Shown: piece by piece, positions 10,475 through 41,520 of the stretch
Position numbering within the stretch: position 1 is the stretch's first letter
How the letters are laid out: each line of letters begins with the position of its first letter
Origin: a virus
Length of the DNA stretch: 64,000 nucleotides
Virus record (IMG/VR): IMGVR_UViG_3300045988_182214
Reading direction: 5' to 3' (one strand)
Program-made: the position numbers and the translations under genes
Notes under the pieces: model-generated
What the model was told of the DNA's origin: nothing
The model's input: the letters and a program-made list of their open reading frames with translations, nothing else
Databases searched by the model: none

Positions 10475-12049
10475 ATGGGAATTGAAGTAACGATTGGAAT
10501 TGTAGTAGCGGTGGTTGTAGTATTAATTGCATTATTATTTGCAAGTTATATTAAGGCCCCGACAGACAAGGCACTTATTGTATCAGGACTTAGAAAGACA
10601 CCTAAGTATGTAATTGGAAGGTCATCACTTAAGATACCATTTTTACAGAGAGTTGATAAACTTGATTTAAAGATGATTTCTGTTGATGTCAAGACAAAGG
10701 AATCAGTACCAACAAATGAGTATATCAATGTTAATATTGATTCTGCTGTAAAGATTAAGATTGGTTCATCACCTGAAATGCTTGGAAAAGCGGCAAGTAA
10801 CTTCCTTAATAAAAATTCAGATTATATCAGAGAATCAGTTGTAGATGTACTTGAAGGTAATGTCCGTGAAATTATAGGACAGATGAAGCTTGAGGATATT
10901 GTACAGGACAGAAAGTTATTTGCTGAAAAGGTACAGGAGAATGCTGCTCCTGATATGGAAAGAATGGGTCTTGAAATTGTAAGCTTTAATGTTCAGAATG
11001 TTACAGATGAAGGTAATGTTATTGAAAATCTTGGTATTGACAGGGTTGTAAGTATCAGTAAGTCAGCACAGATATCAAGAGCTGAGTCTGAAAGAGATAT
11101 TGCAGTTGCAAAGGCTAATGCTGAAAAGCAGGCAAATGATGCAAGGATTGAAGCTGAGACAGCTATTGCAGAAAGAAATAATGAACTTGAGATAAAGAAG
11201 CAGGAATTAAAGAGAGCAGCAGATGTCAAGAAGGCTGAAGCTGATGCGGCATATGAAATTCAGCAGCAGGAACAGAGAAAGACAATTGAAATTACAACTG
11301 CCAATGCTAATATTGCAAAGCAGGAAAAGGAAATTGAATTAAGAGAAAAGGAAATCACTGTTAAGGAAAAGACACTTGATGCCGATATCCGTAAGCAGGC
11401 TGAAGCTGAAAAGTATGCAGCACAGCAGAAGGCAGATGCAGAACTTTATCAGAGACAGAAGGAAGCAGAAGCAAAGCAGTTTGAAATTCAGAAGCAGGCT
11501 GAAGCTAAGAAATCACAGGCAGAAGCAGACAGATTTGCTAAGGAACAGGAAGCTGAAGCAGTAAAGGCACAGGGCTTTGCAGAAGCAGAGAGTATTAAGG
11601 CAAAAGGTGTTGCTGATGCTGAAAGTATTAAGGCAAGGGGATTAGCTGAAGCTGAAGCTATGGAGAAGAAAGCAGATGCAATGGCTAAGTATGGTAAAGC
11701 TGCCATGACTGAAATGATTATCAAAGTACTTCCAGAGATGGCAGGAGCTATTGCAAAGCCATTAGAAGCCATTGATAAGGTAACTATTATTGACAGTGGT
11801 AATGGTGAAACCGGAGTAGGTTCATTCAGCAGTAATGTACCATCAGTACTTGCAAAGACAATTGAATCCGTTAAGGAAACAACTGGCTTTGATTTAACAG
11901 AAGTAATGAAGGCTAATACATATGATGCCAAGACAACAAAGAATGTGAACTTTACAGGCATTCCAGAAGATGCTGACCCGGAGATTAAGGTAACTGTAAA
12001 GAATGTTCCTGAAAAAGTGTCTAAGTCAGAAAAGAATTCTACTAAGTAA
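10475..12049 (+). CDS. SPFH/band-7 (flotillin-like) membrane protein
   Basis: N-terminal TM helix, SPFH domain, long Ala/Glu/Lys-rich coiled coil (AEAEKYAAQQKADAE...) typical of flotillin/YqiK; G+C looks locally higher. Confidence 0.8.
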   Translation: MGIEVTIGIVVAVVVVLIALLFASYIKAPTDKALIVSGLRKTPKYVIGRSSLKIPFLQRVDKLDLKMISVDVKTKESVPTNEYINVNIDSAVKIKIGSSPEMLGKAASNFLNKNSDYIRESVVDVLEGNVREIIGQMKLEDIVQDRKLFAEKVQENAAPDMERMGLEIVSFNVQNVTDEGNVIENLGIDRVVSISKSAQISRAESERDIAVAKANAEKQANDARIEAETAIAERNNELEIKKQELKRAADVKKAEADAAYEIQQQEQRKTIEITTANANIAKQEKEIELREKEITVKEKTLDADIRKQAEAEKYAAQQKADAELYQRQKEAEAKQFEIQKQAEAKKSQAEADRFAKEQEAEAVKAQGFAEAESIKAKGVADAESIKARGLAEAEAMEKKADAMAKYGKAAMTEMIIKVLPEMAGAIAKPLEAIDKVTIIDSGNGETGVGSFSSNVPSVLAKTIESVKETTGFDLTEVMKANTYDAKTTKNVNFTGIPEDADPEIKVTVKNVPEKVSKSEKNSTK

Positions 12050-22477: not shown

Positions 22478-24271
22478 ATGTCAATGTTTGAACATGTAAA
22501 AATTGGAGAATTAACAAAAAAGGTTATTGAGTCAGGAGTTACAGTGTGTGAACATAACCATCCAGGAGGCTCTTTGTTTGATGCCGTAGATGAACCTAAA
22601 AGTTATTTAGATGCTGCATTTAATGCAGGATATACTAAATTTGCTGTTACGGACCATGCATCATTTTCAGCAATGCAAACATGTATTGATTACGCTAAGA
22701 AAATAAGTACTGAGGAACATCCATTTAATATCATTTATGGCGTAGAGGCTTATATTGAAGTGCCACCATTTAAGATAAATGAACAGATTGGCCATATGAT
22801 TATGTTAGCCACTTCAGAAAGAGGCAAGCATATTATTGATAAGTTAAATTCTAAGGCTTCTGAAAAAAGAATGGGAAAGCCTGTTATTACAATATCAGAT
22901 TTAAAGAAATATAACTTTAACGGTGATATAATAGCAACTTCAGCTTGCGTTTCGGGTGCACCAGCTCTGCAATTATTATCAGATGATGTTTTGGATAAAA
23001 TGATTAACAGAGAAAGAAAAGCACAGCAGCATACTACTGAAAAAGACGAGCTAGTTATACATGATTGTATAAGTCCTGATGATAAAGAATATCTTTCAGC
23101 TAAAGATGAATTTGAAAGGGTATCGGCAGATTTAGATGAATTGATTAATATTCGTGATTCCAAGGAACTTAAATCAGAAAGAACACAGATTTCAAGAAAA
23201 TTAAGAGATGCAAGAAAGTGTTTAAATGATGATGATCCAGAGCTTATTAAACTGATTAACGAATATGAGGAGATAAATAATAAAATTCTGGAAGCTAAAG
23301 ATAAAATTCCTAATGTCAGAAAATTAGTTAATGCTAAGAAAGCCGAGTTGAAGGATATAAGTCTTAAGGTAGAGGAATACATTAATCATGAAAATAAGAT
23401 ACAGCATTATGAATCATTAAAGAAAAGCCCAATAGAATTAATGTCTGAAGCAGAAAAGACAATGCTTTTTTATCAGGAAATTTTTGGAGCAGGTAATTAT
23501 TACATTGAAGTTCAGAATCATGGGCTTGAAATGGAAAGCAGAACATATCCTGTGTTAGCTCAGTTAGCAAGGAAGCATAATATTCCATTAGTTGCTGCTA
23601 ATGATGCACATATGGCAGATAATTCTGATAGAAGTATTGATATGCGTAATGTAGCTAAATTTTTAAGATTTATTAAGATAAGTGAGTCGGAATCAGATAA
23701 AGAGTTATATGTAAAGACACCTTATGAACTTGCTCAGGCCTTATCAGCTATATTAACAGATGATCAGGTTGCAGAAGCACTCAATAACTTAAATGTAATT
23801 GGAAAAAGATGTGCTTATATTCCAGAAAAATCTAATCATTATCCAGTATTTGATAAGAATAAGGATTCAAACGAATTATTAAGATCTGAAGCAATTAAGG
23901 GAATTAATTGGAGATATCCTAACGGAAAAGGATGGGATGAAGAACATCAGAAACGAATGGAATACGAACTTAATATTATCATTCAGATGGGCTTTGCCGA
24001 TTATCATTTAATTGTAAAGGACTTCCTGGAATATGGAAGAATTTGTGGATTAGTACCTATGGATAAACTATCAGAAGTACCTTTAACAATTGAAGGTGCA
24101 AAAGAGTATGTTAAGGCTCACAATTATAATACCGGAATTGGAATAGGCATTGGAAGAGGTTCAGGTGCCGGTTCATTGGTTACATATTTACTTGGTATTA
24201 CCGGAATTGATCCATTTAAGTATAATCTGATTTTTGAACGATTCTTAAATCCAGAAAGAGTAAGTATGCCT
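22478..24271 (+). CDS. dnaE: DNA polymerase III alpha subunit (DnaE-type), exon 1 (PHP domain to ERVSMP)
   Basis: PHP motifs [10 protein letters not shown] and AVTDHASFS; ...[40 protein letters not shown] aligns with E. coli DnaE up to the residue just before the catalytic PDFDVDF. The continuous ORF then runs into intron sequence and stops at 24319. Confidence 0.85.
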
Positions 24272-24696
24272 AAATATATTGGGCGTTCAGCGTGGACTCT
24301 AACTCAGAGGTGTGCTTAATATTTTATTATTAAGTGCTAACGGTAGAAGTTGAATAAGACTGCTATATAAAGTGTCACAACAGGATATATAGCTTAACCC
24401 ATAGACGAAGCAGCTTCGTAAGAGAACCTACGGTCCTAATATTTTTATATAAAAGATATTGAAGGATAGCAGGCGATACCGTGCTAAGATTATAAATAAT
24501 ATTATATAAATAAAAAATTGTTCGTATATAATATTATTTATTTTAAAGTGTAACGACTATCCTTTTTAAGGAGTACAACTGAGAATGGTTACAGTTGGAA
24601 GTGCGTTGAAATATAATATTAATAATATTATATTGAGATATAGTCTAATCCCACTTATACAAGTGTTAAAGTACTACGAAAGTAGGGGTATATTTG
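24272..24696 (+). ncRNA. putative group I self-splicing intron in dnaE (no ORF)
   Basis: Splitting at 24271/24697 restores ...ERVSMP|DIDSDLALG..., colinear with E. coli ...ERVSMPDFDVDF. The upstream exon ends in U and the intron ends in G; GAGATATAGTCT (S-element-like) pairs with an upstream AGACTG for a P7; the intron looks GC-richer and more structured than its surroundings. Confidence 0.6.
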
Positions 24697-25452
24697 GATA
24701 TCGATAGTGATCTTGCTCTTGGAGTAAGAGAAAAGACAATTGAGTATGTAAGAGCTAAATATGGTAGTGAAGCTGTTGTTGGAATTATTACAGAATCAAG
24801 ACAGCAGGCTAAAGGTGCTATCAGAGATGCTGCAAGATATTATGGAAAGAAAGCCTATGATGATGAAAAGAAATTCTTATCTTTAGGAGATCAGATTCGT
24901 AAGAAAGTGCCTGCTAAAGCAACTAATTTTGAAGATATTGTTGGCATGAAAGATACTAATAGGGTTGATGAATTAGGCATTAATATTCAGGACAGCGTTT
25001 CTTTGTTAGATTTTTTAAAGGATGAATATAATAGTAATCCAGATGCTATTTCTATTCTTAATATTGCAGCTCATTGCGAAGGTATGCTTACGACATACGG
25101 ACAACATGCCGCAGGTGTTATTATTTATGATAGTAATGATGTTACTGATTATATTCCTATTAGAGATGGAAAAAAGGGAATTAAAACTACAGAAATGGAC
25201 ATGATTCAGTGCGAAGCTAATGGATTATTAAAAATGGATTTTCTTGGATTAAAAACTCTTACAATTATTACTGACACACTCAGAATGATTCAGAGAGATA
25301 CAGGAGAAGTAATTGATGTAATGAATATTCCATTAGAGGGTCCTAAAGCTGATAAGGTATACAAAGAAGTATATGCAAAAGGAAGAACTAAGAATGTTTT
25401 CCAGTTTGAGTCAGCCGGTATGAGGAATAACCTTAAGAAGTTATGCTCATAG
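24697..25452 (+). CDS. dnaE: DNA polymerase III alpha subunit, exon 2 (palm/fingers, ends ...FQFESAGMRNNLKKLCS)
   Basis: DIDSD catalytic aspartates; GQHAAGVIIYD; LKMDFLGLKTLT; VFQFESAGM matches E. coli VFQLESRGM. The reading frame ends 4 codons after the point where the homologue continues. Confidence 0.85.
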   Translation, partial: DIDSDLALGVREKTIEYVRAKYGSEAVVGIITESRQQAKGAIRDAARYYGKKAYDDEKKFLSLGDQIRKKVPAKATNFEDIVGMKDTNRVDELGINIQDSVSLLDFLKDEYNSNPDAISILNIAAHCEGMLTTYGQHAAGVIIYDSNDVTDYIPIRDGKKGIKTTEMDMIQCEANGLLKMDFLGLKTLTIITDTLRMIQRDTGEVIDVMNIPLEGPKADKVYKEVYAKGRTKNVFQFESAGMRNNLKKLCS

Positions 25453-31123: not shown

Positions 31124-32809
31124 ATGAATAAAACAGGTATTGAAGATTTAATAGCAATGAATGCTTTATATCGTCCTGGTCCTGAAAAGTTTATACCTGA
31201 TTTCATAGAAGGTAAAAAGGATGCATCTAAGATTAAATATTTATGTCCTCAATTAGAGCCAATTTTGTCAACTACTTATGGACAGATAGTTTATCAGGAA
31301 CAGGTAATGCAGATTGTTCGTGATTTAGCAGGATATACATGGGGGCGTTCTGATTTAGTCCGTAGAGCTATGTCAAAAAAACATCAGGATGAAATTGATG
31401 CTGAAAGACACACTTTTGTATATGGCAATGCTGATACTAAAAAAGAAAATGAAGCATTAGTACCAGGTTGTATTTCAAATGGAATACCAGAAGAAATTGC
31501 TCATAAAATCTGGGATGCGATGGTTGATTTTGCTAAGTATGCTTTTAATAAGTCACATGCCTCTGCTTATGCTGTTACATCATATTGGACTGCTTTTCTT
31601 AAGTATTATTATCCGGCTTATTATCTTACAAATGTAATAAATCATACTGATAAGATTGATGAAGTCGCTGATGATATTAGTGATGCTCTTGATTTTGGAG
31701 TAAAGGTATTGCCTCCGGACATTAATGCTTCAAATTTACATTGTGATGTTGTAGATGGAAATATTTTGTATGGTCTGAGTAATATTAAGAATGTTGGAGC
31801 AGAAGCAGCTAAAATTATTGAAGATAGAAATGTTAATGGAGAATATTCTGATATTAAGGATTTTATCAAACGAACAAATATTAATGCAGAAGCATTAAGT
31901 TCCTTAATTAAAGCAGGTGCTTTTGATTGCCTTGGTTATACAAGAACAATGATATCATTAGATATGATTTGTATGAAAGAAATTCAGGATACAATCAAGA
32001 AAATCAGAGAGAAGAGTAAGTTTATTGAAAACGCAAGTAAAGTTATTGAATTTGTGGAAGATTATATTGATCTTGATGAGTTTAAGGAAAAAATTTCAGA
32101 AGAAAATATTTCCTTTCAAGTTACTTCAAAAAAGATGCCAACTAAGGATTCCATAATTAAACGTATCAATTCAGCTAAGACAGTTATAGAAAGCTTAGAA
32201 GATGATCTTGAAAATATAGATATTGATTATGTAGAAGATGATTTAGGTCAGATTCTAAATGATGAAAAAGAAGTGTTAGGTGTTTATATTACAGGGCATC
32301 CAATTGATGAGTATAATATTTATACAGATCCCATTTCTGATATTTCAACAGAAGTTAATGATGTATCTGGTATAATTAAAAATCTTGTTATAAGAAAGGA
32401 CAGAAATGGATACGAATGGGTAACTTTTGAGGTAGAAGATAAAACAGGTTCTATTAATGGTGTATGTTTTTCTAAGGATTATGCAAATATTAGAGACTTA
32501 CTTGTTAATGATGCTAAATTATGTTTATCAGGGAAAATTCAAGTAGATGATTTTAGATCTTCAGATGACGAAACTGTATATCAGATTATTGTTAAATCTG
32601 TTAAACCTTTAAAGAAAAATAAGTCTTCATATAGATTTATTTGTACTGTTTCCGAAGTAAACGATGTTCTTGATTCTATTAATGAATATCTGGTGGACGT
32701 TGATGGAGATTATTTATATTGGCTTGATTCAACAACTGGAATTGAACATTTATGTAAGAAATTCATTAACCCTGATATGTCAGCCCCTTCAATAGTACGC
32801 AAATGCTAA
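31124..32809 (+). CDS. dnaE: DNA polymerase III alpha subunit, C-terminal cistron (fingers/thumb/HhH/OB)
   Basis: MNKTGIEDLIAMNALYRPGP...YGQIVYQEQVMQIVRDLAGYTWGRSDLVRRAMSKK...FNKSHASAYAVTSYWTAFLKYYYPAYY is colinear with E. coli DnaE from ...[15 protein letters not shown] onward; its own SD AAAGGAG and ATG. Confidence 0.9.
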   Translation: MNKTGIEDLIAMNALYRPGPEKFIPDFIEGKKDASKIKYLCPQLEPILSTTYGQIVYQEQVMQIVRDLAGYTWGRSDLVRRAMSKKHQDEIDAERHTFVYGNADTKKENEALVPGCISNGIPEEIAHKIWDAMVDFAKYAFNKSHASAYAVTSYWTAFLKYYYPAYYLTNVINHTDKIDEVADDISDALDFGVKVLPPDINASNLHCDVVDGNILYGLSNIKNVGAEAAKIIEDRNVNGEYSDIKDFIKRTNINAEALSSLIKAGAFDCLGYTRTMISLDMICMKEIQDTIKKIREKSKFIENASKVIEFVEDYIDLDEFKEKISEENISFQVTSKKMPTKDSIIKRINSAKTVIESLEDDLENIDIDYVEDDLGQILNDEKEVLGVYITGHPIDEYNIYTDPISDISTEVNDVSGIIKNLVIRKDRNGYEWVTFEVEDKTGSINGVCFSKDYANIRDLLVNDAKLCLSGKIQVDDFRSSDDETVYQIIVKSVKPLKKNKSSYRFICTVSEVNDVLDSINEYLVDVDGDYLYWLDSTTGIEHLCKKFINPDMSAPSIVRKC

Positions 32810-34244: not shown

Positions 34245-35273
34245 ATGGCAGATAAGAATTTATTATTAAATAAAAAAAACAATAAAGATGAATATGTTGA
34301 TGAATTATTTGATACAAATAAACCAATAGAAAACATAAATATTTTATCAGAGGATAATTATACCGATATTTTAAATGATAAAGAGATTTTAAATGAAAAA
34401 GAGAAACTATTATTAGAAAATAATATAACTTATTATATTAAATCATTCGCTGATTATCCGGTTTTATCCAAAGATGAAACTCTTAAATTATTTGAAGAGA
34501 TAAAAAAACATCCTAAAAAGAAAAAAGAAATAACCGAAAAATTGATTTTATCTAATATGCGTTTAGTCATCAGTATTGCTAAAGCCGTTACAGCTAAAAC
34601 GCAAAGTTTTGAAATGGATGATTTATGTCAGGCCGGTATTTTCGGATTATACAGAGCTATACAAATGTTTGATTATAAATTAGGATATGCATTTTCAACT
34701 TATGCAACTCATTGGATTAGACAGAGTATATATAGAGAATTAGCCAATTATGATTTATTAGTTAGATTCCCTGTACATGTAAGAGAACAGGATTCTTTTG
34801 TTAAGACTACATTTGTGGATTTAACTAATAAACTTCAAAGAAAACCTACAATTGATGAATTATATGATGTAGTAAAACAAAGATATCCTCTTTTAACTAA
34901 AGAAATGCTTGTACATATTCAGAGCTTTAATGAATTGGTTTCATTAGATGCACCTATTCAAAGTGATGAAGGCCATGACGATTCGTGTTTGGCTGATTAT
35001 ATAGAAGCTCCTGAACCTAAAGTTGAAGATACGATTATTCAAAAAGAAATGAATGAACTGCTTTGGAAAGAAGTTGAAGATTGTCTCACTCCTAGAGAAT
35101 TATATGTAATTAAGAGTAGAATGGGATATGGTTCAAAGGTTAAAACTTTAAAAGATATAGGTACTGAATGGAATGTTTCCAGAGAACGAATCAGACAAAT
35201 TGAATCAAAAGCAATAAAAAAGATTAGAGTTCGTTTCAGACGGAAAGGATATAGTATACAATCTTTTATGTAA
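34245..35273 (+). CDS. sigma-70 family RNA polymerase sigma factor (phage-encoded)
   Basis: Regions 2.1-2.4 ILSNMRLVISIAKA...GIFGLYRAIQMFDYKLGYAFSTYATHWIRQSIYR; region 4 HTH TLKDIGTEWNVSRERIRQIESKAIKKIR. Confidence 0.9.
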   Translation: MADKNLLLNKKNNKDEYVDELFDTNKPIENINILSEDNYTDILNDKEILNEKEKLLLENNITYYIKSFADYPVLSKDETLKLFEEIKKHPKKKKEITEKLILSNMRLVISIAKAVTAKTQSFEMDDLCQAGIFGLYRAIQMFDYKLGYAFSTYATHWIRQSIYRELANYDLLVRFPVHVREQDSFVKTTFVDLTNKLQRKPTIDELYDVVKQRYPLLTKEMLVHIQSFNELVSLDAPIQSDEGHDDSCLADYIEAPEPKVEDTIIQKEMNELLWKEVEDCLTPRELYVIKSRMGYGSKVKTLKDIGTEWNVSRERIRQIESKAIKKIRVRFRRKGYSIQSFM

Positions 35274-35621
35274 TATATAAATAAAATGCAGTTATCAATA
35301 GGTAGCTGTATTTTTTTATGATTACACTTCCTTTAAGTGTAATATGTCATACACCTTCTTCAAAGCCCTTCTATTATTTTCTTTTTCATTGATACGCTTT
35401 TTATTATTAAAATATAAAAATTAGAGCCTTATATAATACATTTGATTATTCCTTAATAGCGTTTTAAGACTTAATATAATAACCGCCAGAATATTATTAA
35501 GGATTAAAAGCGTATAACTATTATTGTTATATCCTTATACAATATCATTTATCAGCTTAATACATTTTGTGTTTATTTCCCTGGCAATTCCTTACCTGTC
35601 TCTAGCAAGCACTTCATTTAT

Positions 35622-35957
35622 CCCAATTAATGCCTTTAATATACCAATAAATCATATAATTTTCTTATATATAATATATGATAATTACAAAAATTATGAT
35701 TACTAGATTCCTGTAAATCTATTCTTCGCCCTGCAAATGCCTTAGTAAGCCCAATAATCCCATTTCTGTCTCAATAGATGCATTCATATACACTAATTCT
35801 TTCTTATTTGCTCTTAGATCTATTTCCTTTACTCTATCATTTCTATATATGTTCCCAGTAATTCCATTAATTAACTTTAGTAAATAATAATTATATCCCA
35901 TTAATCAGTTATATTTATTTTTCTCACTAATTATACAGTTTATTGTACCCAATTAAT
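35622..35957 (+). repeat. CCCAATTAAT-like boxes (35622, 35750, 35897, 35948; a fifth at 36384)
   Basis: ATCCCAATTAATGCC, GCCCAATAATCCC, ATCCCATTAATCAG, TACCCAATTAATCCA. Confidence 0.45.
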
Positions 35958-36103
35958 CCATATATAATTGCTAATATTACCAATTACATGTTATCAAATT
36001 AACATTTTTTATCTCTTAAATCAGCATATAATAACTACATCATGGTATTATTCTGACACATATAAGGCATTTTATTGGCTATGCAACGGATAATACATTA
36101 CTA

Positions 36104-36354
36104 CATATTGTTATCATTATTACATTTATGTATTAAATATTTAGCTATATATTGTTAATTTTATTGCACAAATTTTTCTATTCTATAACATAATGTTGTT
36201 AGTTTTAATGTATATTAAATCATATTTTATATCTATATATTGTTATTATTTTTGTATCTTAGCTATATTTTAATAAATCTTAAATAACTATATATTGTTA
36301 ATAAAGTTAACATATTAAACTAATATACAACAATAAACGTACAATATATTGTTA
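36104..36354 (+). repeat. five direct iterons (C/T)ATATATTGTTA(A/T)T at 36104, 36146, 36234, 36289 and 36343
   Basis: Spacings of 42, 88, 55 and 54 nt. Confidence 0.6.
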
Positions 36355-36503
36355 TTATTTTTCCCAAGTAAAGGCATAGTATACCCAATAAAGTGCTTAG
36401 AAGAACACAAAAACGGGATATTTTAATAAATAAAAGGCATTTACATTTAGTTACTGACTTATTTTGATACACATCAATTATTTTATGTAAAATAATAATT
36501 CAT

Positions 36504-36517
36504 TTTTTCTGTCATAT
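36504..36517 (+). promoter_or_regulatory. promoter-like motif TTTTTCTGTCATAT
   Basis: 36 nt upstream of ATG 36553. Confidence 0.55.
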
Positions 36518-36552
36518 TAAAAATATAACTAAATAAAAGGAGAACTAATTAT

Positions 36553-37488
36553 ATGCAAAAAATGAATTACGAAGATTTTCTTAAACATCTTAAATTCGAA
36601 TTACTTCAAAATATTGAAGATATTACACCAACAGATATAGTTTACACATCAGATAAGCTTATTTTTCATTCTAAAAATCAGTTTATGCGTCCCTTAGAAT
36701 TTAAATTAAATCAATTATATAAACAATATTTAAATAATTCGTCAATAGAAGAAATTGCATTGTCAATATCTGAAGCATTTTATAGAAACAAAAATTCTAA
36801 TGGTAGTGAATATAAACTTAATAATTTAGCTCCAGAAATTAATTCAAATGATATAAAACACTATATTATGCCTCAATTAATACAAAAGCCGGACAATATG
36901 GAAGATTTAAGCGGCATTCCTCATAAGCCATTTTATGAGTTCGAAATAATTTATAATGTGATCATACCTAAAGAAAATTCAGAAGGTACAATGTTTGTAA
37001 TTGATAATAACTATATGAGGGACATACTGAAAATTAATGAAAACGAATTGTACAATCTTGCAATTCATTCAATATATTCCAACAAATATTTTATCAGTGT
37101 ATTAGGTGATTATTTTTTGACGCAACTGGCAGATGATGATAATTATGAAAAGACAAAGAAAGAATTATCTTTTCTAAGTAATTCTGGTGGGTTTGAGAGC
37201 AAATGTATTAAAGGAATATATGCAATTCAAAATGTAATCGACTTTTATAATACAAGTGCTATTCTGAACAATAATTTGCTTAAGAATATTTCAGAGAAAC
37301 TGAAAACAAATTTATACATTATTCCTGTTACAGCACATATTCTGTTGATATGTAAATACAGTGAATTTACTCCTGAAGAAATTCAAATGGCATTAAAGAT
37401 ATTTGGTATTCAGGAAGAAGAAGATTATCTGAGTTCAGATATATTTATATTTAACAAAGAATCAGGTGAATTAAATAAAATAGAATAA
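36553..37488 (+). CDS. hypothetical protein
   Basis: SD AAGGAG upstream. Confidence 0.55.
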   Translation: MQKMNYEDFLKHLKFELLQNIEDITPTDIVYTSDKLIFHSKNQFMRPLEFKLNQLYKQYLNNSSIEEIALSISEAFYRNKNSNGSEYKLNNLAPEINSNDIKHYIMPQLIQKPDNMEDLSGIPHKPFYEFEIIYNVIIPKENSEGTMFVIDNNYMRDILKINENELYNLAIHSIYSNKYFISVLGDYFLTQLADDDNYEKTKKELSFLSNSGGFESKCIKGIYAIQNVIDFYNTSAILNNNLLKNISEKLKTNLYIIPVTAHILLICKYSEFTPEEIQMALKIFGIQEEEDYLSSDIFIFNKESGELNKIE

Positions 37489-37527: not shown

Positions 37528-38070
37528 ATGATTATAACTATATTAATAAATGTAGTCTTTGTTGTTTCATTGATTATGTTTAGTTTTTATTTTGTGACTG
37601 CAATCAAATACGATATAACTCTTATTGATAAGGCATATATGAGCTTACTTATAGGAGTATTCCCGGGAATTGTTAATGTAAGTTTTAAAAATTCTATAGC
37701 TACTGTGATAGTTTTATTAATTAGTGTAACGGCTCTTATATGGATAGCTTTTACAAAATTTTTTGAGAAAGAACATAAAAAAGAAATTCTTTATGATTGT
37801 TTGCTTTATGATATATCACAGGATGATTTAAAGAAATTCAGACATATGAGCCGTAATAAACAGATTGCTTTTCTAAAGTCTGTTATTACAACTGTAGAAT
37901 CAGCAGAAAAAGAAGAGTCCACTGATGAGAACGGTAATAAGGTTATTACAACCAAGACAGTAATACAGCAAGTACCTTTAATTGAAAATGACGAAGAATT
38001 AGCAGAGTATGAACCAATTCTTAGAAAAAATAAAGTATGGAGCATTTATTATGACGCTTACAGGAAATGA
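37528..38070 (+). CDS. membrane protein
   Basis: SD GGAAAGAG upstream; two or three TM helices; C-terminal QIAFLKS...YEPILRK shared with 38632..38922. Confidence 0.5.
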   Translation: MIITILINVVFVVSLIMFSFYFVTAIKYDITLIDKAYMSLLIGVFPGIVNVSFKNSIATVIVLLISVTALIWIAFTKFFEKEHKKEILYDCLLYDISQDDLKKFRHMSRNKQIAFLKSVITTVESAEKEESTDENGNKVITTKTVIQQVPLIENDEELAEYEPILRKNKVWSIYYDAYRK

Positions 38071-38224
38071 TGCTGTTGATTTTTTTTGAATCAATGCAGC
38101 ACCCAGACGAAAGGCAGCAGGAAATATTATCTAAGATTAAAAGCAATATAACCTTAAGGAATATTCCTAATGGGTATGAAGCTGATATAAAGAATTTGGA
38201 CATGTCTTTTTTAGGAGAAAAATA

Positions 38225-38500
38225 ATGACATTTAAAGAAGCTAGAAAAGAAGCAAGAAAAATAGCACAGCAAACTGGATATTGGGGATATATTTTTAAGG
38301 ATAAATCCGGGGAATGGTTTACATCAGACTGTAATAATTTTACTTCTGATAATTCATTCTATGTAAATAAGGATGGTAAGATCCTTAACATGCAAAAATA
38401 TGAGAAGATAAAAAAGAAGCTTGATAAGCAGGGAATTAAAGGACTGTGTTTATTTTCACCCGAATTAATGAAATATATTGAACAGCATGGTGATTATTAG
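38225..38500 (+). CDS. hypothetical protein
   Basis: SD TAGGAGA upstream. Confidence 0.45.
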   Translation: MTFKEARKEARKIAQQTGYWGYIFKDKSGEWFTSDCNNFTSDNSFYVNKDGKILNMQKYEKIKKKLDKQGIKGLCLFSPELMKYIEQHGDY

Positions 38501-38631
38501 AAATATGATAAAAAAATTACAATATATAGTGATTTTTCTTTAATTTAAGTTAGTACATTTACACTACTTAAATATAAAATAGTGTGGATTTTACACTATT
38601 TAGATAGAAGATAATAAATGGGGGGCTATTT

Positions 38632-38922
38632 ATGAAGATTATTATACTTTCGTTTGTTATAACTTTTATGGTAATAATGCTGTTTAAATCAACTATTGAT
38701 TTAATTGACAGAGTAAAAGAGAAGTCATTTCTATATAGTCTTATTGAGCAATGCACTGATTGCAGCCATGATGAGATTATTACCTTTAAGAAGCAGTTAT
38801 CAAGGGAAGAGCAGATGGCATTTTTAAAGTCACTTAAGTATAAGGAGTCTTATAAGAATGGATTTCTTATTACAGAAGAGATAGATTTAAAAATATATGA
38901 ACCAATACTAAAAAGGAGATAA
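38632..38922 (+). CDS. small membrane protein
   Basis: SD GGGGGG upstream; C-terminal QMAFLKSL...YEPILKRR similar to 37528..38070. Confidence 0.45.
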   Translation: MKIIILSFVITFMVIMLFKSTIDLIDRVKEKSFLYSLIEQCTDCSHDEIITFKKQLSREEQMAFLKSLKYKESYKNGFLITEEIDLKIYEPILKRR

Positions 38923-38925
38923 GTT

Positions 38926-39603
38926 ATGAAATTTAAGAAAAAGAAATCATTTTGGAAAGAATTTTTTAATGAGTGTATAGGAGTAATATTAGTCGGGGCA
39001 ATTATAATATATATTGCCTTATCTGCCATTATAGGAAATCTGATATTGCCATACATAAATAATGGAAAAGAAATAAATCCGTATATAGAAGATGTAAGCA
39101 GTAAGTTTACAATATTTTTAATAAAAACAATCATAGGTGCTATATATCTATTTGGCGCAATTTTCATGCTGTTAATTGCTTTTGCTATTATAAGCATAAT
39201 TGTAATAGCAATAGTAACCGGAATAACACATATAACAGCCGTAAAACGATATACATATTTGCCTCTTACAGTAGATGAAGTAAGAGAAGCTATAAATGCA
39301 GGATTATTTAAAGATACTCCTGAAAGCTATACAGATTATCTTACAAAACAGATGAAGTATTTTGATGGCAGTATAACCTTTTCAGTTGATGATATGAAAA
39401 TAATAACAAAAACAATAAAAGAAATATGGGATGAATCATTTAAACTTAATAAAGATTATCTTATCAGGAATAAAATAGAAAGTTATGATTATCTCCCATT
39501 TGAATTTAGGGATGACAGAGATGATTTATTTTGCCAGTTAAAGAAAGGCAAAACAGTAACTTTTGATATGGATGAAGGGTCTTTGATTCAGACTATTAAA
39601 TAA
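38926..39603 (+). CDS. membrane protein
   Basis: SD AAGGAG upstream; three TM helices. Confidence 0.5.
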   Translation: MKFKKKKSFWKEFFNECIGVILVGAIIIYIALSAIIGNLILPYINNGKEINPYIEDVSSKFTIFLIKTIIGAIYLFGAIFMLLIAFAIISIIVIAIVTGITHITAVKRYTYLPLTVDEVREAINAGLFKDTPESYTDYLTKQMKYFDGSITFSVDDMKIITKTIKEIWDESFKLNKDYLIRNKIESYDYLPFEFRDDRDDLFCQLKKGKTVTFDMDEGSLIQTIK

Positions 39604-39619
39604 AAGAGAGAGGCATGGA

Positions 39620-39982
39620 ATGAAAAAAATTGGGACTATAATATTATATTTTATAATCGGAGTTACAGTCATAGCAGTTATGAAAGAAACCACAGAAGAA
39701 GTCCAGCTTTACAGTATCAGTACGGATAAGGAATATGAAGGTTCATTTGTATTAGGTTCAGGAAGTATTGATTCACAGGAATATATAACTGCTTATCAAA
39801 TTACAGAAGATGGTGGTAAGAAGTATTTCAAAATGAATAGAGATAAAGTAACAATCTATGAGACATTAAACAATAATGAACAGGCTTATGCCGTGATAAA
39901 AAAGGCTTTATTAGGTATTGAAGAAATTAAATTGTATGTTCCAAAAAATACAATAGAAAAGGAAATTAATCTTAATTTATAG
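39620..39982 (+). CDS. signal-anchored small protein
   Basis: SD GAGAGG upstream; N-terminal hydrophobic segment. Confidence 0.5.
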   Translation: MKKIGTIILYFIIGVTVIAVMKETTEEVQLYSISTDKEYEGSFVLGSGSIDSQEYITAYQITEDGGKKYFKMNRDKVTIYETLNNNEQAYAVIKKALLGIEEIKLYVPKNTIEKEINLNL

Positions 39983-40001
39983 TAGGGATAAATTTTGGAT
40001 T

Positions 40002-40091
40002 GACAGATATGATTTATTTTGCCAGTTAGAGAGAAACAAAACAGTTGCTTTTGATATTGATGGTTGTTCTTTAATTCAAAATGTCAAATAA
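40002..40091 (+). pseudogene. 3'-terminal remnant of a paralog of 38926..39603
   Basis: DRYDLFCQLERNKTVAFDIDGCSLIQNVK* versus the C-terminus DRDDLFCQLKKGKTVTFDMDEGSLIQTIK* of 38926..39603; no start codon. Confidence 0.55.
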
Positions 40092-40187
40092 AGAAAAAGG
40101 AAAAATTTTGATACATTTGATGATACTGATATAAAAAATCAAAAAGACAAAATTAATAAAGAATCATTAATAGTAGGAGAATAAGGT

Positions 40188-40709
40188 ATGAATTTAAAAT
40201 TAAAAACACATAACGAATATTTGAATATTAATTTTGATAATGCGACTGATGAAAATATTAATAAATCTTTATCAAAAAAACGAATAGCTAAAATTGTTTT
40301 AGCAGGTATTCTTATATGTTTTATTTTAAGAATTATAAGTTTGATTATAAAACTTACATTTATTTCAATAATTGCGTTAATAGGTTTTAGTGTTTTTATA
40401 TATTTAAGTTTATTTATATTTATCAGTAAAGACATTGATTCCACTGTTATAGGTATTAAAAATTTAAAATATTGGGATAAAATAATAGCTTTAAAAAAGG
40501 TTATTCAAGAAATAGACATGAATAAAGAAGTATATTTTCAATCAGATTTTACAGAGCTTCTTTATTTTAAAAAAAATAGCAGCATATATTCTGAATATAA
40601 GTTACCTTTAAGTGAAATAAAATATTCTGAATCAGATAACTTTGATTTAACTTATGACAAAAATACATTAAATATAATTTTGTATGTTCCTATAAAATAC
40701 ATGTATTGA
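40188..40709 (+). CDS. membrane protein
   Basis: SD TAGGAGA upstream; TM helices. Confidence 0.5.
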   Translation: MNLKLKTHNEYLNINFDNATDENINKSLSKKRIAKIVLAGILICFILRIISLIIKLTFISIIALIGFSVFIYLSLFIFISKDIDSTVIGIKNLKYWDKIIALKKVIQEIDMNKEVYFQSDFTELLYFKKNSSIYSEYKLPLSEIKYSESDNFDLTYDKNTLNIILYVPIKYMY

Positions 40710-40759
40710 AAAAGCAACAAATGATTTTATTCTTAATTCTAAAAGAAAGGATGATCGTT

Positions 40760-41050
40760 ATGACAGATAAAGAATTTCATGATTTGAATAATTATAAAAA
40801 AGAAATAGGAAAAATGAGTGTTGAAATGGCAAATGCAAAATTCCATAAAGGATATTCTGATGATTCTGATGGATATAGTTTTGAAGATTCAATAGCTGAT
40901 TTAGAATTTAAGCGAGATATTCTAAGAGGAGTTGATCCTATTGACGCATTATGTGACCTACAAGAGAAAACACTTGTATATCAATTATTAAATCCTAATC
41001 CAAATATTTATGAGCAGGAAGAAATTTTTGATTACGATGAGGATTATTAA
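40760..41050 (+). CDS. hypothetical acidic protein
   Basis: SD AAAGGA 9 nt upstream of ATG 40760 (in frame with ORF-track start 40706). Confidence 0.45.
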   Translation: MTDKEFHDLNNYKKEIGKMSVEMANAKFHKGYSDDSDGYSFEDSIADLEFKRDILRGVDPIDALCDLQEKTLVYQLLNPNPNIYEQEEIFDYDEDY

Positions 41051-41248
41051 TTACAGTAAAATAAAATCTACCATAGGAGCAGGAACGAATTTCTTCTCAA
41101 AGAAAGCAAGAAAAGAACAATCGAAAATATTGAAACTAATGGCTTTGAAGAATATGACATTGAAACTGAAGAAGAATGGAAAGTTATTAAAAATGAAATT
41201 TTAGATATTTGTATTGAATGTATTAAGAAGCTAAACCTTTGGAGACCC

Positions 41249-41272
41249 ACTTATACCTTGTACTCAGCATAA
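41249..41272 (+). repeat. bracket box L, copy A (ACTTATACCTTGTACTCAGCATA)
   Basis: Matches 51837..51859 ACTTATGCTTTGTACTCAGTATA. Confidence 0.5.
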
Positions 41273-41520
41273 TTTTATCAGCTATCCAATATAGTATTAA
41301 ATTTGCACTTTAGAATTTATATCCTGACATACCACATTAAAACTAAATACAATCTGATTTTTGTATAGAAGATGATTGAAGCCATACCCTGTTATATTAA
41401 ACTGCTAAACACATGTATAGCTCTTAATGTTAACAGGGTATTTTATGTTTTTCTCTGACATTCAGATACTTCTGTTTGGATATCAGATCATATGCTTATT
41501 TTTACATATAGGTTCCCCAT

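What the first reader, a model, noticed from the sequence alone, without database searches (positions are those of the whole stretch)
35274..36552. 1.28-kb gene-free AT-rich region with two iteron families downstream of the sigma gene
Five direct copies of (C/T)ATATATTGTTA(A/T)T lie at 36104, 36146, 36234, 36289 and 36343, with roughly 42-88 nt spacing. Four or five CCCAATTAAT-like boxes lie at 35622, 35750, 35897, 35948 and 36384. There is no convincing ORF on either strand, although the ORF track has two 60-aa ORFs in this interval. The region separates the replication/regulatory block from the small-gene block. Iteron arrays in AT-rich DNA are the classic architecture of phage and plasmid replication origins and of pac or partition sites.
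Basis: seen in the sequence. Interest (0 to 1): 0.6.

Follow-up and report, generated by a model that had tools for sequence, protein, structure and literature searches.

The report
Phased NrdR-box array in prophage spacer
The repeats in this gene-free stretch of a large gut prophage are real and look like eight evenly phased binding sites for NrdR, the host repressor of DNA-building-block synthesis, so the phage may soak up or listen to that repressor rather than start replication here.

Summary
The 1.28-kb gap is real. It is the longest non-coding stretch and the lowest-GC stretch of the window. The ATATATTGTTA repeat family is real and larger than reported: eight 16-bp dyads (TAAC-N8-GTTA) at 35978-36354, spaced 44/54-55/66 bp, all on an ~11-bp lattice. 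The array recurs in two diverged lineages (L005, L155). Five dyads carry all six positions that define an NrdR box, the operator of the host ribonucleotide-reductase repressor. The same 16-mer, paired canonically, sits in front of RNR genes in bacteria, including Lachnospiraceae; one lineage is integrated in Lachnospira eligens. No RNR gene is found in the window, and linkers (28-50 bp) exceed the published 15-16 or 24-27 bp. My best reading (about 0.5) is an NrdR-binding platform that acts as a decoy and/or a dNTP-sensitive operator. An origin is not excluded, but I found no initiator link, no DnaA boxes and no skew switch. The CCCAATTAAT family is not above chance, yet the C-rich 0.75-kb spacer has an inverted GC skew in all three lineages, which is unexplained. 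Unrelated viral contigs carry clear NrdR-operator arrays (28 boxes in L060), so this may be a wider phage strategy. I found no paper describing it.

The parts
35283..35314 (+). Intrinsic-terminator-like hairpin plus T-run that ends the sigma-factor gene. The A-run before it would let it also work for leftward transcripts.
   Evidence: 14-pair stem followed by TTTATGATTA; sequence.
35325..35354 (+). Conserved left-boundary element: the hairpin ACACTT-N5-AAGTGT overlapping the 20-mer AAGTGTAATATGTCATACAC (35335-35354). The 20-mer contains a TGTCATA core like the element's promoters.
   Evidence: The 20-nt exact identity with L005 is the longest shared word between the two gaps. The same 19-mer heads the gap in lineage C. 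It also recurs at host-like chromosomal loci. Function unexplained.
35355..35977 (.). Pyrimidine-rich spacer with inverted strand composition (GC skew down to -0.5). It holds the degenerate CCC boxes and a long imperfect hairpin (35392-35515). Its sequence is not conserved between lineages; only its composition and length are.
   Evidence: negative skew in all three lineages; the other intergenic gaps pool to +0.14. (5-7 variable sites per 100 bp between 98%-identical strains, against about 1-2 in neighbouring DNA). (no Rfam hit; weak fold z-scores). (no RNR remnant).
35978..35993 (.). Box 1, TACCAATTACATGTTA (3 of 6 NrdR positions; weak; on the lattice).
36032..36047 (.). Box 2, TAACTACATCATGGTA (5 of 6).
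36098..36113 (.). Box 3, TTACTACATATTGTTA (6 of 6).
36142..36157 (.). Box 4, TAGCTATATATTGTTA (6 of 6). Its 12-nt core is identical to E. coli nrdEF box 1.
36186..36201 (.). Box 5, TAACATAATGTTGTTA (5 of 6).
36230..36245 (.). Box 6, TATCTATATATTGTTA (6 of 6).
36285..36300 (.). Box 7, TAACTATATATTGTTA (6 of 6). It matches the reverse complement of Listeria nrdDG box 2 at 15 of 16 positions. The TAACWATATATWGTTA pattern that contains it was found, paired with a second box at canonical spacing, beside RNR genes in bacteria.
36339..36354 (.). Box 8, GTACAATATATTGTTA (6 of 6; contains the 12-bp perfect palindrome ACAATATATTGT). It is followed by TGTTATTAT, an extended -10-like element.
   Evidence: (I11).
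36478..36516 (+). Promoter of the element's own type for the DUF5688 gene: TTATTTTATGTAAAA, then 16 nt, then CTGTCATA.
   Evidence: 25 plus-strand copies of CTGTCATA, against 2.1 expected on both strands; most lie about 40-50 nt upstream of start codons. (the same motif in L005).
36536..36555 (+). Shine-Dalgarno sequence AAAGGAGA and the ATG of the 311-aa DUF5688 gene (36553-37488).

Best explanation
The right-hand third of the gap (35978-36354) is an array of eight 16-bp dyads, TAAC-N8-GTTA with core C-W-A-T-A-T-A-T-W-G. They are NrdR boxes in sequence. All lie on one face of the helix (44, 54-55 or 66 bp start to start; period about 11 bp).

I propose that host NrdR binds them. NrdR is the Zn-ribbon/ATP-cone repressor that, as a tetramer loaded with dATP and ATP, bridges two boxes and shuts off ribonucleotide-reductase operons. 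Neighbouring boxes four or five helical turns apart could be bridged in the same way.

No RNR gene is detected in the window, so the array cannot be an ordinary nrd operator. I see two outputs that do not exclude each other:
(a) Titration. Once the element replicates, hundreds of copies of an eight-box array draw NrdR off the host nrd promoters. Host RNR stays on and dNTP supply stays high.
(b) Gating. Every box carries the same asymmetric right flank, TGTTAT(W)A(W), which resembles an extended -10. NrdR occupancy could therefore couple rightward transcription into the accessory gene block (DUF5688 and the small genes) to the dATP/ATP state of the cell.

I commit to NrdR binding as the core of the mechanism and to titration as its main consequence.

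Shown: the array itself, its phasing, its conservation in three lineages, and the identity of its 16-mer with boxes at real nrd promoters.

Inferred: NrdR binding. Speculative: which output matters.

The left two-thirds of the gap (the conserved 20-mer and the C-rich spacer) is part of the conserved module but remains unexplained.
For: 1. The array is real, unique in the window and phased.

2. The NrdR box is defined by C4, A6, A8, T9, T11 and G13 (PMC13584703). Five boxes meet 6 of 6 and two meet 5 of 6. Box density is 17 per kb here against 2.1 per kb elsewhere, and 0 of 5000 shuffles reach the observed count.

3. Experimentally bound boxes are nearly the same sequence. E. coli nrdEF box 1 is TTGCTATATATTGTGT. 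Listeria nrdDG box 2, reverse-complemented, is TAACTATATATTGTGT, against TAACTATATATTGTTA in the window.

4. A scan of 185,579 species genomes for TAACWATATATWGTTA plus a second box after a canonical 14-17-bp linker gave 36 sites. Of 10 large neighbouring ORFs tested, 7 are RNR large subunits and 1 is dnaA. The hits include Lachnospiraceae and Clostridia.

5. Lineage C is integrated in Lachnospira eligens, a member of the Lachnospiraceae.

6. Three lineages keep an array at the same place in the module, on the same ~11-bp lattice, while the DNA between boxes diverges. One of them has only 51% sigma-factor identity to the window. Among the lineage C boxes the core differs mainly at positions 5 and 10, which NrdR does not constrain.

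7. Unrelated viral contigs carry clear NrdR-operator arrays away from any detected RNR gene. L060 has 28 boxes with C4, A6, A8, T9, T11 and G13 invariant, positions 5, 7 and 12 variable, unconserved 16-bp linkers and 32/15-bp alternation, next to the terminase gene.

8. Four-turn box spacing does bind NrdR in vitro and is the native spacing in Streptococcus (PMC12051234).
Against: 1. Linkers are 28, 38-39 and 50 bp. Published functional linkers are 14-18 and 24-27 bp; 28 bp was not tested.

2. A weight matrix built only from published Firmicutes boxes scores the array boxes at 7-11.5 bits, against 10-20 for its training set. It does not separate them from scattered background hits in this AT-rich window, and L005 boxes fall below 6 bits.

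3. In AT-rich DNA the six-position rule carries little information. Nine other 6-of-6 sites lie scattered across the window.

4. Across the three lineages the best-conserved bases are T1, A2, C4 and T12-G13-T14-T15-A16. A6 and T11 are conserved in only 17 and 14 of 24 sites. This asymmetry is not the NrdR logo and hints at another constraint or another protein.

5. No canonical box pair and no RNR gene lie nearby, and no NrdR-like ORF was seen in the window.

6. Between 98%-identical strains the boxes are not significantly less variable than the linkers: 2 of 11 variable sites fall in boxes, against 3.1 expected.
Confidence: 0.5

Rival explanations
1. Replication origin. The phased dyads are iterons bound by an initiator that the element encodes. 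Binding wraps the DNA and melts the flanking DNA, which has the lowest GC of the window.
For: - The array sits in the lowest-GC DNA of the window.
- The repeats are helically phased, and L005 has a 22-bp tandem register like plasmid iterons.
- It lies at the end of the replication gene block.
- It is conserved in relatives.
- In two lineages a 311-329-aa protein gene follows directly, as in iteron-rep layouts.
- One bacterial pair of these boxes lies upstream of dnaA.
Against: - There are no DnaA boxes in the gap.
- GC skew and gene orientation are the same on both sides.
- DUF5688 has enzyme-like conserved residues and no detectable link to Rep proteins. Four distant homologues have no array upstream, and the L005 lineage has the array but no DUF5688 gene next to it.
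- DUF5688 is absent from the plasmid collection.
- The half-sites are unchanged between lineages with 51% sigma identity and equal a universal host operator. That is unexpected for a private initiator-iteron pair.
Confidence: 0.15
2. A control region of the element itself. The array is a set of tandem rightward promoters (extended -10, TGTTATWAW) and/or operators for a regulator encoded by the element, and it switches the downstream accessory gene block on or off. The resemblance to NrdR boxes is coincidental.
For: - All boxes have the same orientation, with a conserved asymmetric right flank TGTTAT(W)A(W). L155 site 1017 reads TGTTATAAT.
- In lineage C the last site (TGGTATTAT) lies about 30 nt upstream of the DUF5688 ribosome-binding site, with no CTGTCATA promoter in between.
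- The element is temperate, so it needs operators.
- The asymmetry of conservation does not fit the NrdR logo.
Against: - No -35 element is conserved.
- About half of the hexamers lack the T at the last position (sequences).
- The consensus promoter scan finds no excess in the region: 18 sites against 18.2 in shuffles.
- The element's own promoter type (CTGTCATA) is different and is already present in front of the DUF5688 gene in the window.
- Six to eight promoters 44 bp apart with nothing to transcribe between them have no obvious purpose.
Confidence: 0.15
3. A site for DNA transactions other than replication: attP-type recombination arms, or a packaging or partition site.
For: - The element is integrative. 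Two tyrosine integrases lie 1.4-2.9 kb downstream of the DUF5688 gene in lineage C.
- The 19-20-mer at the left edge of the gap is identical to a sequence found at several host-like chromosomal loci. It recurs just after a peptide deformylase gene, with variable DNA beyond it, like an att core.
- In L060 an NrdR-type array lies directly upstream of the terminase gene.
Against: - In contigs of 322-400 kb the sigma-gap-DUF5688 order is unbroken, so the gap is not the crossover point there.
- Among the larger ORFs of the window that were scanned, none gave an integrase, ParA/ParB or terminase hit.
- Strict 11-bp phasing of six to eight dyads is not the usual pattern of integrase arm sites.
Confidence: 0.07
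4. The left 0.75 kb is a decayed gene or a leftward non-coding RNA, and the boxes are what is left of its operator.
For: - The inverted GC/AT skew is unique among the intergenic regions of the window and recurs in all three lineages.
- The minus strand folds somewhat better than shuffled sequence (z = -2.6 with 20 shuffles).
- The sigma terminator could act in both directions.
Against: - There are 25-27 stops per minus-strand frame, of all three kinds.
- There is no Pfam, PHROG, RNR or window-protein similarity and no Rfam family.
- The spacer sequence is not conserved between lineages and is the most variable part between near-identical strains.
- No promoter of the element's own type lies on the minus strand here.
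Confidence: 0.08

Closest known systems
NrdR operator (paired NrdR boxes at ribonucleotide-reductase promoters; Rodionov and Gelfand 2005, recalled from memory; PMC9110341, PMC12051234, PMC13584703)
   Same: A 16-bp partly palindromic box with C4, A6, A8, T9, T11 and G13. The box sequences are 13-15 of 16 identical to boxes shown to bind NrdR. The boxes are spaced by whole helical turns. The same 16-mer is used at nrdD promoters of Lachnospiraceae.
   Different: There are eight boxes instead of two (rarely three or four). Linkers are 28-50 bp instead of 15-16 or 24-27 bp. No RNR gene is detected in the window. The boxes lie in a 1.3-kb non-coding spacer of a prophage. An extra, asymmetric flank (TGTTATWAW) is conserved.
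Transcription-factor titration by decoy site clusters (for example the E. coli datA locus for DnaA or P1 incA iterons for RepA, both recalled from memory; decoy-site theory in PMC8599769, title and abstract only)
   Same: A cluster of high-affinity sites, not tied to the regulated promoter, whose copy number changes the free concentration of the factor.
   Different: Here the sites sit on a mobile element and would target a host metabolic repressor. No experiment supports titration in this case.
Iteron origins of plasmids and phages (lambda ori, R6K, P1, pSC101; recalled from memory)
   Same: Repeated, helically phased sites of about 16-22 bp in very AT-rich DNA next to replication genes. L005 shows a 22-bp register.
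   Different: There is no adjacent initiator that can be linked to the repeats, no DnaA boxes and no skew switch. The repeat equals a host repressor operator.
NrdR-operator arrays in unrelated viral contigs found here (L060, L085/L096, L063, L113)
   Same: Many NrdR-type boxes in a gene-free spacer of a phage, with no RNR gene detected nearby.
   Different: In L060 the boxes are symmetric (GTAC...GTAC or ACAC...GTGG). They are arranged as canonical 16-bp-linker pairs repeated every 47 bp, in 40% GC DNA, so their NrdR identity is much clearer than in the window.

Membership tests
NrdR operator | A 16-bp partly palindromic box with C4, A6, A8, T9, T11 and G13 (C4 and G13 are critical). | tested here: met
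   Five boxes score 6 of 6 and two score 5 of 6. The definition comes from PMC13584703. The boxes are near-identical to bound boxes. A weight matrix from 14 published Firmicutes boxes is inconclusive in this AT-rich DNA.
NrdR operator | Two boxes separated by 15-16 bp (or the minor 24-27 bp class), that is, three or four helical turns centre to centre. | tested here: not met
   Linkers are 38, 50, 28, 28, 28, 39 and 38 bp (start-to-start 54, 66, 44, 44, 44, 55, 54). All are whole turns of an ~11-bp helix, but they fall outside the published ranges. In L005 the stronger boxes lie 42-45 bp apart start to start (linkers of about 26-29 bp).
NrdR operator | Lies at, and overlaps, the promoter of an RNR operon (or of nrdR itself). 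| tested here: not met
   tblastn with NrdD and class I/II RNR large subunits found no hit in the window or in L005. The flanking genes are a sigma factor and DUF5688.
NrdR operator | Bound by the dATP/ATP-loaded NrdR tetramer. | not testable with these tools
   Needs EMSA, MST or ChIP.
Iteron-type replication origin | Three or more phased direct repeats in AT-rich DNA. | tested here: met
Iteron-type replication origin | An adjacent gene for the initiator that binds the iterons. | tested here: inconclusive
   A DUF5688 gene follows the array in two lineages but not in L005. The family has no known fold or function, and the single-sequence model is poor (pLDDT 45). Distant homologues have no arrays upstream.
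Iteron-type replication origin | DnaA boxes and/or a switch of strand skew at the origin. | tested here: not met
   No TTATCCACA-like site lies in the gap. Cumulative skew rises on both sides with only a local dip. The window covers only part of the genome.
Tandem sigma-A-type promoters | -35 and -10 hexamers at 16-18-bp spacing, or TGn plus a good -10 hexamer ending in T. | tested here: inconclusive
   TG-N-TAxxxx follows every box, but no -35 is conserved and about half of the hexamers end in A. The scan shows no excess over shuffles.
attP / partition / pac site | Adjacent integrase, ParAB or terminase, and a crossover or cleavage point inside the region. | tested here: inconclusive
   Integrases lie 1.4-2.9 kb downstream of the DUF5688 gene in lineage C only. 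The 20-mer is shared with host-like loci. The gap is unbroken in contigs of 322-400 kb. DNA ends were not testable.

The most novel reading that the evidence does not exclude
Temperate and lytic phages carry non-coding arrays of NrdR operators as DNA sponges. As the phage genome is copied, the arrays sequester the host's dATP-sensing repressor and so keep the host ribonucleotide-reductase genes switched on. This would be a few-hundred-base substitute for carrying RNR genes. The window array (8 boxes) and the arrays of 22-28 boxes in L060 and L085/L096 would be instances of one widespread strategy.
Probability: 0.25. Interest if true: 0.85.

Novelty: new variant of a known kind. Interest (0 to 1): 0.7.

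Why it matters
NrdR is the near-universal switch for dNTP synthesis in bacteria. Phages are known to boost dNTP supply by encoding their own reductases. A non-coding operator array that hijacks or reads the host switch would be a different and much cheaper route.

It would give a function to one of the long 'empty' spacers of large gut prophages. It would also be directly testable, by NrdR binding assays, by placing the array on a plasmid and by deleting the array.

The same screen found unmistakable NrdR-operator arrays, and canonical NrdR operators in front of genes with no detected similarity to RNR large subunits, in many uncultivated phage contigs. The NrdR regulon may therefore reach well beyond RNR genes in the virome. 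Even if NrdR proves not to be the ligand, a phased array conserved in three lineages marks a real cis-acting site in a Lachnospira prophage family.

Tried and rejected
- Hidden gene or recoded gene in the gap: rejected. There are many stops of all three kinds in every frame, and no Pfam or PHROG hit.
- RNR pseudogene, or a duplicate of a window gene: rejected.
- Known RNA family or tRNA: none found.
- Structured RNA: folding z-scores are weak (+ strand -0.1; - strand -2.6 with only 20 shuffles). Between lineages no sequence is conserved, so covariation could not be tested.
- CCCAATTAAT as a second iteron family: rejected statistically.
- PWM from E. coli and Streptomyces boxes: misleading, because G/C flanks dominate the score against an AT-rich background.
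- PWM from published Firmicutes boxes: inconclusive.
- Finding more relatives through the sigma factor: only two lineages exist in 5.8 billion proteins, and the degenerate-pattern scan was unproductive.
- The viral scan for the 20-mer gave only the window's own lineage plus chance hits in coding DNA.
- DUF5688 as a Rep protein: no support. Structure prediction without an alignment failed (pLDDT 45).
- Several tandem 'arrays' from the three-core viral scan are coding repeats or plain tandem repeats, not operators: L079/L092, L104/L115, L088, L089, L106, L112.
- Literature searches for CTGTCATA, DUF5688 and NrdR plus phage or decoy found nothing relevant.
Full report
CONTEXT. The window is part of a large, 28% GC mobile element with all genes on the + strand. 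Positions 1-35.3 kb form a replication and recombination block: RecJ, RecA, a primase-like protein, a UvrD helicase, a methylase, a DnaE polymerase split over three ORFs, a 5'-3' exonuclease, CAAX proteases and an RpoD-like sigma factor at 34245-35273. After the gap come a 311-aa DUF5688 protein (36553-37488) and about 27 kb of mostly small ORFs without family hits. No GenBank phage resembles it. IMG/VR holds two 98%-identical contigs of 95 and 103 kb.

THE OBSERVATION. The gap 35274-36552 holds only 41-60-aa ORFs. All six frames carry many stops of all three kinds. The conceptual minus-strand peptides hit nothing. It is the longest non-coding interval of the window, and 36000-36400 has the lowest GC of the window (17.7%).

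ATATATTGTTA occurs exactly four times in 64 kb, all within 36147-36354, with a fifth copy one mismatch away at 36103.

The CCCAATTAAT family does not stand up. Two copies are exact and the rest are degenerate. The window count with one mismatch or fewer equals chance (13 against 11.3). One copy is mutated twice in a 98%-identical strain.

What is real on that side is composition. GC skew falls to -0.5 over 35300-36100, against about +0.25 in the rest of the window. The other intergenic regions pool to +0.14, so this gap is the exception.

ANATOMY. From left to right the gap holds:
- the sigma terminator (35283-35314);
- a hairpin plus the 20-mer AAGTGTAATATGTCATACAC (35335-35354);
- about 620 bp of pyrimidine-rich DNA;
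- the repeat array;
- about 120 bp of further non-coding DNA;
- a promoter of the element's own type, TTTATGTAAAA-N-CTGTCATA, 44 nt before the DUF5688 start codon.

That promoter motif, TTTTTTCTGTCATAT, occurs 25 times on the + strand (31 on both strands, against 2.1 expected by chance). Most copies lie about 40-50 nt upstream of start codons.

THE REPEAT IS A PHASED DYAD. Aligning the copies shows a conserved C exactly 8 nt before the G of TTGTTA, which gives the 16-mer TAAC-N8-GTTA. Eight copies lie at 35978, 36032, 36098, 36142, 36186, 36230, 36285 and 36339. The spacings are 54, 66, 44, 44, 44, 55 and 54 bp, all multiples of about 11. The resultant length is 0.98 at a period of 10.95 bp, and none of 5000 random placements reaches it.

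RELATIVES. The sigma factor has only one other lineage in the protein collection (P0003, 51% identity). Its contigs (L005-L008) keep the order DnaE pieces-CAAX-128 aa-sigma. They add a 324-aa gene unrelated to DUF5688, then show a 1.33-kb gene-free gap followed by small genes.

That gap starts with the same 20-mer and has negative GC skew throughout. It carries eight TAAC-N8-GTTA-type sites at 10850-11149 in a 22/44-bp register and ends with the same CTGTCATA promoter. Apart from these pieces the two gaps share no sequence.

A metagenome scan with the 20-mer added a third lineage (L136, L140, L155, L160). It has the 20-mer, about 750 bp with skew of -0.25 to -0.68, and then boxes at 797, 841, 885, 929, 973 and 1017 (exactly 44 bp apart), plus 1083 and 1161. 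A DUF5688 gene follows at once. Phasing is again about 11.0 bp.

This lineage lacks the sigma and CAAX genes upstream. Two tyrosine integrases follow the DUF5688 gene, and then come chromosomal genes. One of these is, residue for residue, the lactaldehyde reductase of Lachnospira eligens. The family is therefore integrative, and the contigs of 322-458 kb are most likely host chromosome carrying the element.

WHAT THE DYAD IS. The 16-mer fits the NrdR box. PMC13584703 lists C4, A6, A8, T9, T11 and G13 as the highly conserved positions. Five window boxes satisfy all six and two satisfy five.

Boxes shown to bind NrdR include E. coli nrdEF box 1, TTGCTATATATTGTGT, and Listeria nrdDG box 2, which reverse-complemented reads TAACTATATATTGTGT. 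The window has TAGCTATATATTGTTA and TAACTATATATTGTTA.

As an independent test I scanned one genome of each of 185,579 species for TAACWATATATWGTTA followed, after a canonical 14-17-bp linker, by a minimal second box. This gave 36 sites in diverse taxa, including Lachnospiraceae, Clostridia, Bacillota and Desulfobacterales. Of 10 large adjacent ORFs, 7 are RNR large subunits (NrdD five times, class I/II twice) and one is dnaA. The phage 16-mer is therefore a sequence that bacteria of the host's family use as an NrdR box.

Box density is 17 per kb in the window array and 13 per kb in the L005 array, against 2-3 per kb elsewhere. None of 5000 shuffles reaches the observed counts.

CAVEATS.
- The six-position rule is cheap in AT-rich DNA: nine other 6-of-6 sites are scattered over the window.
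- A weight matrix from 14 published Firmicutes boxes gives the array only 7-11.5 bits and misses the L005 boxes.
- Linkers are 28, 38-39 and 50 bp. Published functional linkers are 14-18 or 24-27 bp, and NrdR needs two boxes to bind.
- Over the three lineages the most conserved bases are T1, A2, C4 and T12-A16. This asymmetric pattern reads TGTTAT(W)A(W) with its flank, like an extended -10, and is not the NrdR logo.
- No -35 element is conserved, and the promoter scan shows no excess.
- No RNR gene, RNR remnant or NrdR-like ORF was found in the window.

A WIDER PATTERN. A scan of IMG/VR for three strong box cores within about 100 bp returned 73 stretches. Some are coding or plain tandem repeats. 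Many are canonical 31-32-bp pairs or triplets in front of phage genes that show no similarity to the NrdD and class I/II large subunits used as queries, in contigs of 100-180 kb. A few are unmistakable arrays.

L060 (40% GC) has 28 boxes over 680 bp. A3, C4, A6, A8, T9, T11 and G13 are invariant, while positions 5, 7 and 12 vary. The 16-bp linkers are unconserved, and the spacing alternates 32 and 15 bp. The array lies in a gene-free interval directly upstream of the terminase and portal genes. L085 and L096 are relatives with about 22 boxes.

Only one of 78 viral loci had a detectable RNR large subunit nearby. Five literature searches found no description of NrdR boxes in phages or of NrdR decoys (DUF5688).

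MECHANISM. My best reading is that host NrdR, in its dATP/ATP form, binds the array by bridging boxes four or five turns apart. With no RNR gene in the window, the output would be one or both of the following. The first is titration of NrdR once the element is amplified, which keeps host RNR derepressed. The second is dNTP-state gating of rightward transcription from the extended -10-like elements built into each box. Binding is inferred and the output is speculative.

RIVALS.
- An origin with a private initiator remains possible. However, there are no DnaA boxes and no skew or orientation switch. DUF5688 shows no Rep features. It is a large family with enzyme-like invariant residues. It has no solved relative and is absent from the plasmid collection. 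Four distant homologues have no array upstream, and the gene is absent next to the L005 array.
- A private regulator or tandem-promoter reading explains the asymmetric flank, but not the exact coincidence with a host operator.
- An att, pac or par role is hinted at only by the 20-mer. It recurs at host-like loci, repeatedly just after a peptide deformylase gene, with variable DNA beyond it. The gap is unbroken in the large contigs.

UNEXPLAINED. Two things remain open: why the 0.6-0.75-kb spacer keeps an inverted, pyrimidine-rich composition in three lineages while its sequence drifts freely, and what the 20-mer does.

Noticed in passing
window, 25 plus-strand sites, e.g. 2987, 3566, 12234, 19984, 28693, 31080, 32885, 36509, 58975, 62981; also L005 561, 4172, 4822, 6638, 11405, 11588: A family-specific promoter-like motif, TTTTTTCTGTCATAT. 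It occurs 31 times on both strands against 2.1 expected. Most plus-strand copies lie about 40-50 nt upstream of start codons. A subclass has TTTATGTAAAA about 19 nt further upstream. The element's own sigma factor may read it (my inference, not tested).
   Followed up: partly
window 22478-24319, 24694-25452, 31124-32809 (L005 606-2471, 3346-4116, 4864-6573): The DnaE-type polymerase is split into three ORFs. About 5.7 kb of other genes (nucleotidyltransferase, 5'-3' exonuclease and others) lie between the second and third pieces. In L005 an HNH endonuclease gene sits between pieces 1 and 2.
   Followed up: no
window 38000-38700 and 39600-41400 versus L001/L002: Between strains that are otherwise 98% identical, whole segments of the small-gene block are replaced. 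These are mosaic accessory-gene cassettes.
   Followed up: no
L060 4521-5200 (IMGVR_UViG_3300010338_001427); L085 5531-6000; L096: Arrays of 22-28 perfect NrdR boxes arranged as canonical 16-bp-linker pairs repeated every 47 bp. The linkers are unconserved. The array lies in a gene-free spacer directly upstream of the terminase and portal genes of a 40% GC phage.
   Followed up: partly
L057 2365-2412, L061 3851-3928, L077 525-603, L120 3825-3902 and about 15 similar loci from IMG/VR sample 3300045988: Canonical NrdR operator pairs or triplets (31-32 bp start to start) lie just upstream of small phage genes in gut phage contigs of 100-180 kb. The loci gave no hit to the NrdD and class I/II RNR large subunits used as queries.
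   Followed up: partly
L127-L166 with about 38% GC, e.g. L128, L134, L135, L139, L143, L145, L146: The 19-mer AGTGTAATATGTCATACAC also occurs in host-like chromosomal DNA. It recurs just after the terminator of a peptide deformylase gene. AGTGTAATACACT precedes it, and different genes follow it in different samples. It may be a host regulatory site, an att-like core or the end of a mobile element.
   Followed up: partly
L155 3529-4854, 5005-5940, 6496-12842: Lineage C ends with two tyrosine integrases next to Lachnospira eligens chromosomal genes (lactaldehyde reductase, a flavodiiron protein, a Na:alanine symporter). The family is therefore made of integrated elements, and the contigs of 322-458 kb are most likely host chromosome.
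   Followed up: partly
L017 2377-2422 (Parablautia muri): A canonical pair of TAAC...GTTA NrdR boxes lies about 210 bp upstream of dnaA rather than of an RNR gene.
   Followed up: no
window 38517-38532: A lone 6-of-6 NrdR-type box, TTACAATATATAGTGA, lies in the intergenic region before the gene at 38632. No partner box lies at 31-32 or 41-45 bp.
   Followed up: partly
L136 4103-5395 (minus strand): An IS605-type TnpB gene (OrfB_IS605 plus the Cas12f-like TNB domain) lies 1.6 kb upstream of the 20-mer in lineage C.
   Followed up: no
L169 1696-2160 and 4001-4921: A distant DUF5688 homologue lies in a bacterial chromosome 1.8 kb downstream of an nrdR gene. The sequence just upstream of it looks like a tRNA gene by eye. 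The proximity is probably coincidence.
   Followed up: no
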